Below are positions 26,560 through 51,587 of a DNA stretch of 64,000 bases, piece by piece. The stretch covers positions 45,074,001 through 45,138,000 of the forward strand of contig OZ024742.1 of assembly GCA_964016885.1 (NCBI GenBank), written 5' to 3'. Source of the DNA: Eledone cirrhosa (taxonomy: Eukaryota). Below the pieces are notes generated by a model, which had not been told where the DNA came from, did no database searches, and saw only the letters and a program-made list of their open reading frames with translations. Position 1 is the first letter of the stretch, and each line of letters starts with the position of its first letter. A program made the translations under genes and the position numbers.

Positions 26560-27849
26560 GTAATATTAACTGTTTTACTTGTTTATTCTCTGTTTTCAAA
26601 AATCTCTTTTGTTCTCATTACAGGAGTTTTACTTTACTTCCTTCATTATCATCATCATCATTATATTTTTAAAATACTTTGTGTGTGTGTGTGTGTGCGC
26701 ATCAGTTTACTGCATGTATCTTCATATGGACAACATTTAAATCAGCTAGTGACATTTGTTTATGTTGTAGGGGATTGACAAAGATAAGCTGCATATACCC
26801 TACTTAAAAAAAACAGTAACGGTTGGCATCAATAAGGACATCTTGCTGTAGAAAAACTGCTTCCAAAAGTCTCGTCTAACTCATGTTAGCATTGAAAATT
26901 TAGACATAAAAATGCTAATGAGTTTGATAAAACAACTAACAGTCAAGTACAGTGTGTGGCCTTATTCTTATGTTAGAAATCAATGTTTTTGGTGTATATG
27001 TTTTCAATATTTCTGTGTCCATCTATTGCATTGTAAATCATTTGTGTAACTGCTTATATATCCTTCATTGTCACTCAGTGGCCTTCTCTGTATTGGTCTG
27101 ATTCTTCTTTTCTTTAACACAATAGATCATTTATTTGATCTTTACATAATGTGTGATGTTGTATCCAGCTCTACGTTTGGCCTACCCTCAAGCGTGTAAT
27201 GCATGTCAACATATACCCTAGAGTAAGTCATTAGCTGGAAACATGTATTGCAGTTCATAGCAGGCATCACACTGAGAGAGAAGCCCTTTGTTGTCAGCAG
27301 AGGTTTCAGCTCTCTAAACCTCTTATAGCCTGTTCTTACATTAGCTATTATGCTTTCAGAGCATACATATGTATATCATGCCACTCTTTCTATAGCTGGA
27401 TGCCATTCCTATCATCAATCATTTTAGAGTGTGTACTAGGTGTATTTATCATGTAAATCACCAACACAAGGGAGGCTGTTATTTCCTTGGCACAACCGAA
27501 GGGTCTTCTCAATTCTTTTTGTCACGGTTTCTACAGCAGGATGCCCCCAAACACCTTGTAGGGTGTACCAAATGCATTTTTTTATAATACCAGCACTAGA
27601 GAAGTTGTTGGTCATTGTCTTAACTGAAGAGTCCTCTGTGGGGATTAGCAAGAGGAGAAGAGAGACAGGTATGGCTGTACAGCAAGTGTAGTGTGATTTG
27701 ACAGGGTGGTGAGTGGGAAAGGGGTGACTTTTGATAGTACAAGGGAAGGGGGATATAGTGGTGGTGAAAATAGTTACATGAAGATAGTGGTTTGGGAGTA
27801 TGAATGTTGTGGTCTTATATATATATGTGTGTGTGTGTGTATATGTATA

Positions 27850-28002
27850 TAACTTTGATAACTTTTGGCCAGTATTGGCCCAGGCCATGTGTGTATATAT
27901 ATATATATATATATACATGTGTGTGTGTGTGTGTGTGTATATATATATATATACACACACACACATGGCCTGGGCCAATACTGGTCAAAAGCTATCAAAG
28001 TT
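27850..28002. repeat. Inverted pair of ~40-bp CR1-like 3' termini around a TA/TG microsatellite
   Basis: aactttgataacttttggccagtattggcccaggccatg (27850-27888) and its near reverse complement (27964-28002) match the 3' end of the LINEs at 30344 and 35512. Confidence 0.85.
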
Positions 28003-28078
28003 ATATATATATATATATATATATATATATATGTGTGTGCATATGTGTGTGTGTGTGTGTGCATATGTGTATATATAT

Positions 28079-28735
28079 CACGATAAATCGTGTCTATAGT
28101 CTACCTTCATAGTTATAGATTCCATACACTGGTGGTTTTTTCCCTGTTTTATTGATAGCGCACTGTATCTCTCTCTAGTGTGTTACCTTTTCAACATATT
28201 GTATTTTAAAGAGCTCAGGATTTCCTCTCCTTTGAGCACATTATTGACAGGGAATAGCGAGAGTCTATGGCTCTGTTAATTTATCGTGATATTTCGCTCC
28301 TTATAACAGTCTTTCCTCTCTCTCTGTTTGGTTGAGCACACTTCTCTGAGTGGTTTTGGGCTGCCCTTTCTAGCAATCGTCCCTCAGAGGCCACTGGTTC
28401 ACTGCCCTTAAACATGCTGTGACTTCTCTCTCCCATATGTAGCTGGACAGTCTCTTTTTAAATTCTCTTAGTGTTGTCTGAAATGTATAGCCTTACACAC
28501 GCTGAAGAACCGGGGTTATTCAATTTCTGTCAACAACTTACTGGCGAAACAGATCTATTTGGATTTGTACGTGTGTTATATAGTTATAGAGGTATTTATT
28601 TACGCTTAATTTATATTTTTAATTATCGTGTCTATAGTTTGCCTTTCATAGGTTATAGATTCCATACACCGGTGGTTTTTCCCTGTTTTATTGATAGCGC
28701 ACGGTATCTCTCTCTAGTGTGTTACCTTTACCTTT
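28079..28735 (+). mobile_element. Non-coding hammerhead-bearing element with ~103-bp terminal direct repeats (retrozyme / PLE pLTR-like)
   Basis: Direct repeats 28087-28190 and 28625-28729, internal hammerhead, flanked by TA/TG arrays. Confidence 0.7.
28495..28576 (+). ncRNA. Type I hammerhead ribozyme motif
   Basis: acacacg-CTGAAGA-accgg...ctggc-GAAA-cagatcta-tt-tggatttg-TA-cgtgtgt. Stem I is 7 bp, stem III is 8 bp including G-U pairs, GUA cleavage triplet. The 10.1-11.1 pair is an A-C mismatch. Confidence 0.8.
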
Positions 28736-48020: not shown

Positions 48021-48494
48021 TATATATATATACATATATATATATACATATATATATATATATATACATATATACATATATATATATATATATATATATA
48101 TATATATATATATATATATATATATATATACATATATACATATATACATATATATATATATATATATACATATATACATATATATATATATATATATATA
48201 CATATATACATATATATATATATATATATATACATATATATATATATATACATATATATATATATACATATATATATATACATATATATATATACATATA
48301 TATATATACATATATATATATATATACATATATATATATATATATATATATATATATATATATATACATATATATATATATATATATATATATACATATA
48401 TATATATACATATATATATATACATATATATATATACATACATATATATATATACATATATATATATATATATACATATATATATATATATATA

Positions 48495-50725
48495 CATCAT
48501 CATCATCATCATCATCATCAACGTTTAACGTCCGTGTTCCACGCTTGCATGGGTTTGGACGGGGGTAGTCCCACTTGAGGCAAGAGTGATTGTCTTGCTC
48601 GCATAGGACTGTCTGGCAGGTTTTCTACAGTTGGATGCCCTTCCTAACACCAACCACATTTACAGTGTGGGTCTGGGAGGTTTTTACCGTGTTGCCTACA
48701 CGGCCACATTACAGCGTGGACTGTGTGTTTTTTGTCGTGACACCTACACGATCTCATTTGTTTCGGCCTCGATGGCGCGGCACCAACATAACTTTACATA
48801 GAACGGGGTGGTGTGGATCGGGTGGGGGTGGTGGTGGTGGGACGGGGTGTATTTTGTTAGAGATGCCTACTGGCTGGAGTAGGTTTTACTATATATTTAG
48901 GTAAGGCGGGTCTTCTCTGTTACTGAGTACCGCCAAAGGTCTCGGTCCAGTGACATTGTCTTGGAGAGGTGTAAGTGTGTGATGTCGGAGTTTATCAGCT
49001 CGTCCCAGGTTTTTCTAGGTCTGCCTATTCCGTGACTACCGTCTATCTTTATTGCCCTGCACTTTGTTATACAGCTATCGACTTTCATGCGCATCACGTG
49101 TCCATACCAACGTAGCCTTCTCTCGAGTAAACAACATCTGATCCCTCTTATCTCTAATTTTTTCCTTAGTTCGTTTATGCTTTGCCGTTCACGTATATTA
49201 CTGTTACACATCCAGCGGAGCATGCAAGCTTCGTTCCTCTCTAGTCTGCGTATATCCTCTGCACACAATGCCCAGGTCTCACTGCCATGCAGCATTGCTG
49301 TTCGTATGCAGGCATCGTACAACCTGCTTTTCATTTTTAGTGAGAACCCTTTAGCAGCTAATAGTGGTATAAGCTCTCTGAACTTTTTCCAACCAGTTCT
49401 GACTCTAGCTACAGTACTTTCAGAGCACCCTCCCCCACTGCTGATTTTATCGCCCAGGTAACGGAAGCTGTCCACTATTTCTATAGAACCCTCTGCGCAA
49501 TTGAAAGAGCTAGTAGTTTGTGGGCACTTGCTGCTACTTATTGCACCAGAGCACCGGCCACATGTAAAATCTATGTTCTTAGTTAGCTTACCTGTGATCC
49601 CACTACATCTTTTATGCACCCATACTTTGCATTTAGGACATAAAATGGAGTTTCTACCTACGCCTTTCCTACACACCGAGCACGACCATTTCCCAGAAGG
49701 GACCGCCGCCTTGTTTTCTTTCCTACAAACTAGTACTTTGGTCTTAGCCAGGTTAATTTTAAGTCCTTTTGACTCTAGGCCGTGCTTCCATGTTTGGAAT
49801 TTCTTCTCTAGCTCGGCCATTGATTCCGCTATGAGTGTCAGGTCGTCTGCGTATAGGAGTTCCCATGGGCAGCCTGTCTTGAACTCCTCTGTTATAGCCT
49901 GAAGGGCAATAATAAATAGTAGTGGACTGAGAACAGAGCCCTGATGGACGCCAACTTTTACGCTAAACTCTTCACTATATTCGTTGTTAATTCTAACCTT
50001 GCTGACTGTTTCTTTATACATGGCTTGTATAGCCCTCACAAGCCATTCGTCAACGCCTAGTTTTCTAAGAGCCCACCAGATAATGGAGCGGGGGACTCTG
50101 TCGAAGGCTTTCTCCAAGTCGACAAAAGCTAAGTAGAGGGGTTTACCTTTAGCTAGGTACTTCTCCTGTAGTTGTCGTACTATGAAAAGAGCGTCTGTGG
50201 TACTTTTGCCTGACACAAACCCGAACTGCATTTCATCTAGGTCAATTCTCTCTCTGATTAGTTGCGCTATTACTCTTTCCGTGACCTTCATGACCTGGTC
50301 GATTAATTTAATGCCTCTATAGTTACTCCTATCTAGGGCGTCTCCTTTACCCTTATAACAGTTAACGATGATGCTGCTATGCCAGTCCTTCGGAACAACC
50401 CCATTCTGTACGACTTGGTTAACTATGCGGGTGACCATGGTGTGTCCCACCGTGCCAGATGCCTTCAGCATCTCAGCAACTATTTCCGAAGGCCCAGCCG
50501 CCTTACCAGTCTTCATATCCTTGATTGCCTTACTTATTATACTCCCCTCGACTAACACTGCTGGTCCCTCTATTGGGTCGATATGGGGGAGACTGCCTTT
50601 CTCCCAATTATTCTCCTCATTTAGAAGCCTTTCATAGTGACACTTCCAAGCTACCTTCTTATCAGCGTCGGTGATGGCAAGTGTGCCATCGTCGTTTAGT
50701 ACACACTTCTCCCCGACAATATCAC
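48495..50725 (-). mobile_element. RTE-A LINE, 5'-truncated, open RT ORF
   Basis: Near-identical to 37301-39533; both ends abut CA-interrupted TA arrays. Confidence 0.96.
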
Positions 50726-51587
50726 ATATATATATATACATATATATATATATATATATACATATATACATATATATATATACATATATATATATATATA
50801 TATATATATATATATATATATATATATACATATATACATATATACATATATATATATATATATATACATATATACATATATATATATATATATATATATA
50901 TACATATATATATATATATACACATATATATATATATACATATATATATATACATATATATATATACATATATATATATATATACATATATATATATATA
51001 TATATATACATATATATATATATATATATATATATACATATATATACATATATATATATACATATATATATATACATACATATATATATATACATATATA
51101 TATATACATATATATATATATACATATATATATATATATACATATATATATATACATATATATATATATATATATACATATATATATATATATACATATA
51201 TATATATATATACATATATATATATATATACATATATATATATATATACATATATATATATATATACATATATATATATATATACATATATATATATATA
51301 TACATATATATATATATATACATATATATATATATATACATATATATATATATATATATATATATATACATATATATATATATATATATATATATATATA
51401 CATATATATATATATATATATATATATATATACATATATATATATATATATATATATATATATATATATATATATATATATACATACATATATACATATA
51501 TATATATATATATATATATATACATATATATATACATATATATATATATATATATATATATATATATATATATATATATATATATAT
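50726..51587. repeat. CA-interrupted (TA)n array
   Basis: Directly visible; ends ~185 bp before the next exon. Confidence 0.97.

What the first reader, a model, noticed from the sequence alone, without database searches (positions are those of the whole stretch)
27817..51587. 24-kb intronic nest: unrelated retroelements all inserted into expanded (TA)n arrays
Seen: at least 15 inserts lie within one SNX27 intron. They include five RTE-A pieces, one RTE-B, two CR1-like copies plus two minimal ends, a Penelope element, two SINEs, two hammerhead-bearing non-coding elements and an RTE derivative. Every insert is bounded on both sides by interrupted TA arrays of up to ~1.4 kb, with almost no unique intron sequence between them. 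All coding inserts are 5'-truncated directly at an array, most ORFs are still open, and sibling copies are near-identical, so they are young. Their 3' tails ((GAT)n, ...GTTA, ...CCATATA) offer microhomology to (TA)n. Established: APE-type (RTE, CR1) and GIY-YIG-type (Penelope) endonucleases are unrelated, and long (TA)n tracts form cruciforms and are break-prone. Inference: a self-reinforcing sink, in which TA tracts capture whatever cDNA is available (possibly at breaks, independent of the element's own endonuclease) and keep expanding. This could be a general route of intron and genome growth in this lineage.
Basis: partly seen in the sequence, partly recalled or inferred. Interest (0 to 1): 0.75.

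Follow-up and report, generated by a model that had tools for sequence, protein, structure and literature searches.

The report
Retroelement stack in TA repeats
Seventeen pieces of jumping genes sit side by side in TA repeats and fill most of one intron; their relatives also land in TA repeats elsewhere in this genome while another equally young family goes to TATC repeats, so the pile likely grows because several families each prefer TA repeats, not because the repeats trap any DNA copy.

Summary
The nest is real: 17 inserts (16.2 kb) separated only by 18 TA-type arrays (7.6 kb) fill 23.8 of 25.2 kb of an SNX27 intron. The inserts are independent, non-nested insertions; arrays on both sides of an insert share one interruption pattern in 12 of 13 cases. 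Dispersed copies of the same families end in (TA)n far above the 10% background: RTE-A 30/50, RTE-B 15/29, CR1-like 21/29, Penelope 28/29; full-length SINEs have TA at the 5' side in 26/29. But two equally young Tx1/L1-type subfamilies with (TATC)n tails go to (TATC)n (5' side 21/29; TA 1/29). So 'TA captures whatever cDNA is available' is not supported; preference is family-specific. Best reading: a shared landing pad that each insertion splits and that regrows by slippage and fold-back. Break capture is not excluded: duplications of 5 bp or more occur at only 5 of 24 non-array RTE sites, and 8 of 723 arrays carry mirror-image flanks. Long reads could not be checked. The architecture resembles plant SaTar arrays; the scan noted TA-seeking RTEs and Penelope piles on other DNA of this genome before.

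The parts
26399..26559 (+). SNX27 exon upstream of the intron (ends ..LLYWQ|gt)
   Evidence: open frame and splice sites; assignment by eye
26560..51772 (+). SNX27 intron, 25,213 bp, 94% of it the nest
27816..51589 (.). the nest: 18 TA-type arrays (7,569 bp) and 17 inserts (16,205 bp)
27852..28001 (.). I1 and I2: two 34-bp CR1-like 3' ends as an inverted pair around an 82-bp array (46-bp arms, 3 mismatches); likely a fold-back product
28079..28738 (+). I3: non-coding ~540-bp tandem-type unit with a 106-bp direct repeat; retrozyme-like
28495..28576 (+). predicted type I hammerhead in I3 (stem I 7 bp, CUGAAGA, GAAA, stem III, GUA)
   Evidence: core kept in relatives; not matched by Rfam
28840..29253 (-). 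I4: tRNA-headed SINE sharing the RTE-B 3' end and (GAT)n tail; older variant
29254..30345 (.). 1,092-bp array whose interruptions switch TACA > TATG > TACA (strand switch)
30346..31780 (-). I5: 5'-truncated CR1-like LINE, open RT frame 30431-31780
31935..32277 (-). I6: full-length young tRNA-headed SINE; 40 dispersed hits at 100% over 330-333 bp (own copy included)
32518..32711 (+). I7: RTE-A 3' end, 194 bp
32756..33366 (+). I8: 611-bp non-autonomous RTE-type derivative; dispersed copies sit in (TATG)n or (TA)n
   Evidence: RTE origin inferred from a recalled zinc-finger remnant
33459..33508 (.). I9: 50-bp end of a further repeat family
   Evidence: 5 other loci, 95-98% over 44 bp
33509..34893 (.). 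longest array, 1,385 bp, TATG-interrupted
34894..35302 (+). I10: RTE-A 3' end, 409 bp
35514..37099 (-). I11: 5'-truncated CR1-like LINE; 19-bp deletion shared with copies on two unplaced contigs, absent in I5
37302..39713 (-). I12: 5'-truncated RTE-A (RT + PHD), identical over 971 bp to 40 dispersed copies
40849..42711 (-). I13: 5'-truncated RTE-B (79% amino-acid identity to RTE-A)
43569..45162 (+). I14: 5'-truncated RTE-A, identical over 351 bp to 40 dispersed copies
45520..45954 (-). I15: non-coding tandem/inverted-type element (Penelope-like layout); no hammerhead found; the array pattern switches from G- to C-type across it
46114..48019 (+). I16: 5'-truncated Penelope-like element, RT then C-terminal GIY-YIG with CX4CxxC linker and CCHH; frameshift in an A23 run at 46789
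47753..47797 (+). predicted minimal type I hammerhead in the Penelope 3' end
48498..50722 (-). I17: 5'-truncated RTE-A; 10 substitutions and 3 gaps against I12
51773..51862 (+). SNX27 exon downstream of the intron (AIDDVSRS..)
   Evidence: next exon 52823-52972 matches SNX27
20500..24380 (+). older near-full-length RTE-A outside the nest (APE endonuclease + RT + PHD, 92% to a young copy), not TA-flanked

Best explanation
The intron holds one TA microsatellite region that was hit again and again by retroelements of at least three unrelated lineages and their non-coding passengers, likely because each family's own insertion machinery prefers (TA)n. Shown: relatives of these families sit in (TA)n across the genome at family-specific rates, insert into arrays that were already there, and leave array on both sides. 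Inferred: each element's endonuclease (APE for RTE and CR1-like, GIY-YIG for Penelope) nicks easily opened or extruded TA tracts, and the RNA 3' end (..GAU, ..GUUA, ..CAUAU) pairs by 2-4 bases with the nicked strand to prime reverse transcription; the 5' end joins with 0-4 bases of microhomology. Each insertion splits one array in two, so later elements land beside, not inside, earlier ones. Inferred: the halves regrow by slippage and by fold-back template switches, which keeps the target large. The feedback is a shared landing pad open to TA-compatible families only, not a general trap.
For: 3' flank is a TA run in RTE-A 30/50, RTE-B 15/29, CR1-like 21/29, Penelope 28/29, I15 24/29, SINE 20/29, I3 18/23 (5 not determined) against 10.1% background. 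5' flank TA in 26/29 full-length SINEs; TA on both sides of RTEs co-occurs (19 both, 13 one, 24 neither of 56; p=1e-4). Control: young Tx1/L1-type copies have (TATC)n at the 5' junction in 21/29 and TA in 1/29. 29 of 38 RTE tail/array junctions are in the pairing phase against half expected (p=8e-4). Both APE families have an endonuclease in longer copies. Arrays flanking an insert share their interruption type 12/13 in the nest (25% expected) and 7/9 at SINEs. 28 of 115 adjacent arrays are 100 bp or longer against 5% if arrays were picked by number. PMC8557442 reports (TA)n bias for Penelope-like elements; PMC6007223 reports tail-dependent site choice for RTEs.
Against: Target duplications of 5 bp or more at only 5 of 24 non-array RTE sites (1.5 expected by chance), so the usual mark of endonuclease cutting is mostly missing. 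A (GAT)n tail pairs with (TA)n by only 2 bases and would fit (GAT)n better, so tail pairing alone does not explain the RTE preference. The Tn signature of PMC6007223 was not clear here (40% T, 31% A in the 20 bases before the 5' junction; no background computed). Long arrays are hit less than in proportion to length (24% against 39%; p=6e-4). No empty allele was seen, so array growth after insertion is inferred; the one internal reference (SINE in a minisatellite, L316) shows an AT run longer by about 3 units only. Samples are top-scoring hits, mostly from the largest chromosomes, and include a few local duplicates.
Confidence: 0.66

Rival explanations
1. Break capture: long TA tracts extrude, are cut by host enzymes, and the broken ends prime any reverse transcriptase whose RNA end can pair with them, without the element's endonuclease.
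For: Short or absent target duplications (5 of 24). 8 of 723 background arrays have mirror-image flanks against 0.47 in shuffled pairs, some with the interruptions mirrored too, a fold-back mark. Strand switches inside the nest's arrays. TA tracts form cruciforms and break (PMC12972899, PMC9890227; search listing only).
Against: Young Tx1/L1-type copies avoid TA (1/29) and choose (TATC)n, which is about 0.3% of junction windows. Rates differ among families. All inserts keep their 3' ends; loss of the 3' end is the recalled mark of endonuclease-independent insertion. Some mirror arms are repeat ends and may come from Penelope-type inversions.
Confidence: 0.17
2. The arrays are born from element tails: each insert seeds or brings its own (TA)n, which then expands, so there is no targeting.
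For: CR1-like, Penelope and I15 ends run into TA; 5' TA is rarer for CR1-like (5/18); for Penelope and I15 the outer 5' flank was not counted because of inversions.
Against: 5' flanks are TA in 26/29 full-length SINEs, 9/16 RTE-A and 8/18 RTE-B; both sides share locus-specific interruptions; RTE tails are (GAT)n.
Confidence: 0.06
3. Misassembly: separate TA-flanked elements were chained through their arrays, or array lengths are inflated.
For: No long reads were available; short-read contigs of what may be the source sample match the unique intron up to both borders but cannot span arrays. Similar nests lie on unplaced contigs.
Against: Interruption types agree across 12 of 13 inserts (p=7e-7); every insert has its own clean 5' junction and intact tail; exons on both sides join in frame.
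Confidence: 0.05
4. Local duplication of element-plus-array units, or purge of insertions outside arrays, built the pile.
For: Local duplicates with the same 5' junction exist elsewhere (L129/L130; L273/L274). In the unbiased sample older copies are somewhat less TA-flanked (9/24 below 85% identity, 11/19 at 95% or more).
Against: No two nest inserts share a 5' junction; I12 is identical to 40 dispersed copies but differs from I17; I11 shares a deletion with distant copies, not with I5. Copies at 100% identity are already 52-97% TA-flanked, too young and too many for purging (inference).
Confidence: 0.06

Closest known systems
SaTar arrays of guayule and rice, and maize TAFT elements as cited there (PMC5907723; abstract and first part of the discussion read)
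   Same: Linear, non-nested multimers of unrelated elements joined by TA microsatellites; target duplications often missing; arrays reported to lengthen after insertion.
   Different: SaTars are Mutator-like DNA transposons of one superfamily in plants. Here the modules are 5'-truncated retroelements of RTE, CR1-like and Penelope lineages with SINEs and retrozyme-like passengers in an animal, with kb-long arrays.
Penelope-like elements with (TA)n bias: Neptune, Nematis, Naiad (PMC8557442; passages read)
   Same: I16 has C-terminal GIY-YIG, CX4CxxC linker, CCHH, hammerhead, inverted 5' pieces and 28/29 TA ends.
   Different: The paper covers Penelope-like elements alone; here APE-type LINEs share the target. 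CCHH argues against the Hydra clade named in earlier scan notes for other elements.
RTE-clade LINEs and SINEs with tail-correlated target choice (PMC6007223; abstract, results part 1 and one discussion section read)
   Same: Microsatellite tail, short 3' overlap with the target, SINEs sharing the LINE 3' end.
   Different: That work rests on copies with target duplications and a T stretch; it does not report stacking in (TA)n arrays in the parts read. Here duplications are mostly absent.
Metazoan non-LTR retrozymes (PMC7229834 and bioRxiv 10.64898/2026.07.22.740005; passages read)
   Same: I3: non-coding tandem unit with a type I hammerhead, low GC, tandem and inverted copies.
   Different: Unit about 540 bp (150-450 bp described); RNA circles and cleavage untested; I15 lacks a detectable hammerhead.
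Microsatellite-targeting non-LTR retrotransposons (Togen, some HERO families in PMC4640811 passages; Kibi, Koshi, Rex6, Dong recalled)
   Same: Family-specific microsatellite targets, as in the (TATC)n Tx1-type control.
   Different: Those are strict single-family targets; here many clades share one loose target.

Membership tests
SaTar-type modular arrays | unrelated elements in a linear array, none interrupting another | tested here: met
   17 inserts, each bounded by arrays
SaTar-type modular arrays | microsatellite on both sides of members genome-wide | tested here: met
   (SINE, RTE, I8); Penelope and I15 5' sides not counted
SaTar-type modular arrays | members are Mutator-like DNA elements with terminal inverted repeats | tested here: not met
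   RT frames, 5' truncation and 3' tails; it works like a SaTar array but is not one
RTE-clade LINE (RTE-A, RTE-B) | single long ORF with APE endonuclease and RT | tested here: met
   1,085-aa frame in L383/L385; Exo_endo_phos + RVT_1 in the older window copy; RTE-B endonuclease not scanned
RTE-clade LINE (RTE-A, RTE-B) | 3' microsatellite tail and SINEs sharing the 3' end | tested here: met
   (GAT)n tails; I4/I6 share the RTE-B end
RTE-clade LINE (RTE-A, RTE-B) | RT groups with named RTE elements in a tree | not tested
   homolog search gave unnamed invertebrate proteins; clade label rests on recalled motifs
CR1-clade LINE (I5, I11) | APE endonuclease upstream of RT | tested here: met
   PF14529/PF03372 in L249, RVT_1 in L254
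CR1-clade LINE (I5, I11) | RT groups with named CR1 elements in a tree | not tested
   label from recalled motifs; 25-36% identity to the RTE RTs
Penelope-like, Neptune/Nematis type (I16) | RT followed by C-terminal GIY-YIG with CCHH and CX2-5CxxC linker | tested here: met
   motifs read; Pfam GIY-YIG E=2.7e-4, just below its cut-off
Penelope-like, Neptune/Nematis type (I16) | hammerhead near the 3' end, inverted 5' pieces | tested here: met
   (predicted, not assayed)
Non-LTR retrozyme (I3) | non-coding tandem unit with type I hammerhead | tested here: met
   Rfam negative
Non-LTR retrozyme (I3) | self-cleavage and circular RNA | not testable with these tools
   needs RNA work
Non-LTR retrozyme (I15) | type I hammerhead in the unit | tested here: not met
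   core boxes occur in reverse order without stems
Endonuclease-independent retrotransposition | loss of the element's 3' end (recalled) | tested here: not met
   all nest inserts keep 3' ends; dispersed copies were found by their 3' ends and cannot test this
Endonuclease-independent retrotransposition | no target duplication, target deletions (recalled) | tested here: inconclusive
   5 of 24 with 5 bp or more; no empty sites to measure deletions

The most novel reading that the evidence does not exclude
This genome runs a microsatellite address system coupled to a growth engine: retroelement families divide the simple repeats by their 3' ends ((GAT)n, GTTA and CATAT ends to (TA)n; TATC tails to (TATC)n; CATG ends to (TATG)n), while TA tracts break and fold back on themselves, offering primer ends to unrelated reverse transcriptases and regrowing after each hit. 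Such pads (arrays are about 9% of sampled DNA) would be a main route of intron and genome growth in this lineage, turning a ~1.4-kb intron into 25 kb.
Probability: 0.22. Interest if true: 0.75.

Novelty: new variant of a known kind. Interest (0 to 1): 0.44.

Why it matters
Why elements with unrelated endonucleases converge on one simple repeat is open: PMC8557442 names microsatellite bias as unexplained for Penelope-like elements, and PMC5907723 leaves the SaTar mechanism speculative. This genome has very young RTE, CR1-like, Penelope and Tx1-type families with intact frames and different target rates, so tail and endonuclease swaps could separate RNA pairing, enzyme preference and DNA structure. 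If the pads are self-renewing they explain local intron growth (94% of this intron) and assembly breaks. The locus itself is one of many such piles, and each part has a precedent.

Tried and rejected
Rfam over the whole nest gave only microRNA noise from the arrays; Rfam on I3, I15 and the Penelope end found no ribozyme. Long target duplications as the engine of array growth: none at unique sites; matches in arrays cannot be told from repeat similarity. An (AAT)n-tailed SINE as third control: the genome search returned nothing because the words are too common. Empty allele: other organisms' contigs did not cover the exon, RAD-seq reads of other individuals covered only repeats, and contigs cannot span arrays. 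Naming the clades by homologs: no informative names. Ichiyanagi and Okada 2008 is not held; known only as cited in PMC6007223. Tn signature: unclear. Local duplication of siblings: rejected. I9 as unique intron remnant: rejected. The organism was not identified; an octopod is suggested only by earlier notes and the repeat content.
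Full report
Observation. A scan for alternating purine-pyrimidine runs splits 27816-51589 into 18 arrays (7,569 bp; 36 to 1,385 bp) and 17 inserts (16,205 bp). The window is G000:C3:45074001-45138000 of a 3.0-Gb genome. The exon at 52823-52972 matches SNX27 (E=9e-17). Open frames with gt and ag place the intron at 26560-51772, 25,213 bp; these two bordering exons were assigned by eye. The nest is 94% of the intron.

Inserts. Pfam finds RT in I5, I11, I12, I13, I14, I16 and I17, a PHD finger in the RTEs, and a weak GIY-YIG in I16. APE endonucleases lie in longer relatives: the older RTE-A copy at 20500-24380 and CR1-like L249. RTE-A and RTE-B are 79% alike as proteins, CR1-like and RTE 25-36%, and the Penelope RT gives no match to them. 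Six of seven coding inserts have no stop between junction and end; I16 shifts frame in an A23 run. The clade names RTE, CR1 and Tx1 rest on domain layout and recalled motifs, not on a tree. I4 and I6 have tRNA A and B boxes and share the RTE-B end. My own pattern search predicts type I hammerheads in I3 and in the Penelope end, none in I15; Rfam matched none. I3 and I15 relatives form tandem and inverted copies.

Independent insertions. I12 is identical over 971 bp to 40 dispersed copies but differs from I17 by 10 substitutions; I11 shares a 19-bp deletion with copies on two unplaced contigs and not with I5. 5' junctions are all different and show about 0-4 bases shared with the array (read by eye for 7 of 8 printed; the I10 alignment was off). 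The dominant interruption (TATG or TACA type) agrees on both sides of 12 of 13 inserts from I5 to I17, against 25% for random pairs (p=7e-7). This fits one ancestral array split repeatedly and argues against chaining by the assembler. Short-read contigs of what may be the source sample match the unique intron up to both borders but cannot span arrays; long reads were not available.

Background. In 54 systematic 10-kb samples (540 kb) TA arrays of 20 bp or more cover 8.6%, and a TA run of 8 or more bases lies within the next 20 bases at 10.1% of positions. Four of 54 samples reach the nest's 24-32%, and some of these hold young CR1-like or RTE copies between arrays. Two unplaced contigs are similar piles. 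The nest is a strong example of a common feature.

Dispersed copies. I took the best 20-30 of 40 scored hits per search and dropped the window's own copy or the query's source. 3' flank TA: RTE-A 17/30 and 13/20, RTE-B 15/29, CR1-like 21/29, Penelope 28/29, I15 24/29, I8 9/23, SINE 20/29, I3 18/23 with 5 undetermined; all exceed background. The test is strict: most misses for I15 and CR1-like are interrupted TA runs, and most I8 misses are (TATG)n. 5' flank TA, where the end is visible: SINE 26/29, RTE-A 9/16, RTE-B 8/18, CR1-like 5/18; I8 9/23 TA and 16/23 TATG. Of 56 RTE copies with both ends, 19 have TA on both sides, 13 on one and 24 on neither. So arrays are targets, not just tails. In the unbiased sample TA flanks are 11/19 at 95% identity or more, 5/9, 4/6, and 9/24 below 85%.

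Control. Two subfamilies of a Tx1/L1-type LINE (zf-RVT), 97-100% alike and ending in (TATC)n, were drawn from the background sample. Their 5' junctions, visible in 29 of 58 copies, are (TATC)n in 21 and TA in 1; 3' TA is 8/58, as background. A few of these are local tandem duplicates, where the 5' repeat may be a neighbour's tail. Equally young cDNA therefore does not fall into TA. Rates also differ among the nest's own families (p=1e-4). This refutes 'whatever cDNA is available'. A third control search failed.

Junction marks. 29 of 38 RTE tail-array junctions read GAT then ATA, the phase that allows pairing, against half expected. At 24 non-array RTE sites, duplications of 5 bp or more are seen in 5 (1.5 by chance); three or four of the 24 have uncertain 5' boundaries. 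No long duplications were found at unique sites. A SINE in a minisatellite shows an AT run about 3 units longer than the neighbouring units (L316). Missing duplications count against a plain reading as endonuclease cutting and keep break capture alive; intact 3' ends in all nest inserts count for target-primed insertion.

Feedback. 28 of 115 arrays next to young 3' ends are 100 bp or longer; 5% is expected if arrays are picked by number and 39% if by length. Longer arrays are hit more, but less than in proportion; growth after insertion would give the same signal. 8 of 723 background arrays have mirror-image flanks against 0.47 in shuffles; some arms are unique sequence and some arrays mirror their own interruptions, while others are repeat ends. 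The I1/I2 hairpin and the TACA-TATG switches in the nest fit fold-back synthesis. That arrays regrow after each insertion is inferred; no empty allele was seen.

Mechanism. Shown: shared target, existing arrays, side-by-side stacking, family-specific rates. Inferred: each family's endonuclease nicks TA tracts, helped by their structure; short tail pairing primes; slippage and fold-back renew the pad. I give this 0.66, break capture 0.17, tail-seeded arrays 0.06, duplication or purging 0.06, misassembly 0.05.

Known context. PMC5907723 (abstract, first part of discussion) describes non-nested arrays of unrelated Mutator-like elements joined by TA repeats in plants. PMC8557442 (passages) gives (TA)n as a preferred target of Penelope-like elements and links it to the CX2-5CxxC linker, which I16 has. 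PMC6007223 (abstract, results part 1, one discussion section) ties RTE site choice to the tail. PMC7229834 and bioRxiv 10.64898/2026.07.22.740005 (passages) cover retrozymes. PMC13282606 and PMC9115989 (passages) list active RTE, CR1, Tx1 and Penelope families in octopus without TA stacking in the passages found. PMC4640811 and PMC4760211 were seen as passages; PMC12972899 and PMC9890227 only as listings. Nine searches showed no paper on multi-clade retroelement stacks in animal TA arrays; most subscription journals are not held and no supplements were read. Earlier scan notes report TA-seeking RTEs with short duplications, Penelope piles in TA and an (ATT)n nest elsewhere in this genome; I saw them after my own counts, and they are not independent support.

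Verdict. Observation confirmed; interpretation partly supported. A new variant of a known kind: a SaTar-like array built by retroelements of several lineages. Interest 0.44.

Noticed in passing
L333:379-925: A perfect 247-bp inverted duplication centred on a TA array ends exactly at the 5' junction of a young Tx1-type copy, as if the target folded back during integration.
   Followed up: partly
L318 (SINE at centre of locus): A young SINE sits at the centre of a perfect 56-bp palindrome with a TA core.
   Followed up: no
L224:3330-3618; L226:2896-3400; L244:2132-2422: Arrays of 290-500 bp whose interruptions are mirror-symmetric, with 20-51 bp arms not found in other fetched loci.
   Followed up: partly
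L242:1077-2356; L106:5846-7546: Two very young Tx1/L1-type subfamilies that insert in (TATC)n; one copy lies in a 43-bp minisatellite.
   Followed up: yes
L100:2446-2649; L240:8762-8971: An abundant (AAT)n-tailed short repeat; at least one copy has (ATT)n on both sides. The genome search for it failed.
   Followed up: partly
L129/L130, L125/L126, L273/L274, L280/L281, L163/L164: Local tandem duplicates of element-plus-repeat units.
   Followed up: no
L091-L096 (contigs C1733, C1627): Unplaced contigs that are piles of kb-long TA arrays with short inserts.
   Followed up: partly
window:15000-18243 and 20500-24380: Two older RTE copies outside the nest, neither followed by a TA array; the second has a 112-bp tandem duplication in its 3' end.
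   Followed up: partly
window:10721-12088: 28-bp minisatellite, 50 copies, 93% matches.
   Followed up: no
L005, L008, L120, L123 (3' flanks): Several RTE copies outside TA arrays are followed at once by a 35-45 bp tandem duplication.
   Followed up: no
window:33459-33508: 44-bp end of a further, unidentified repeat family.
   Followed up: partly
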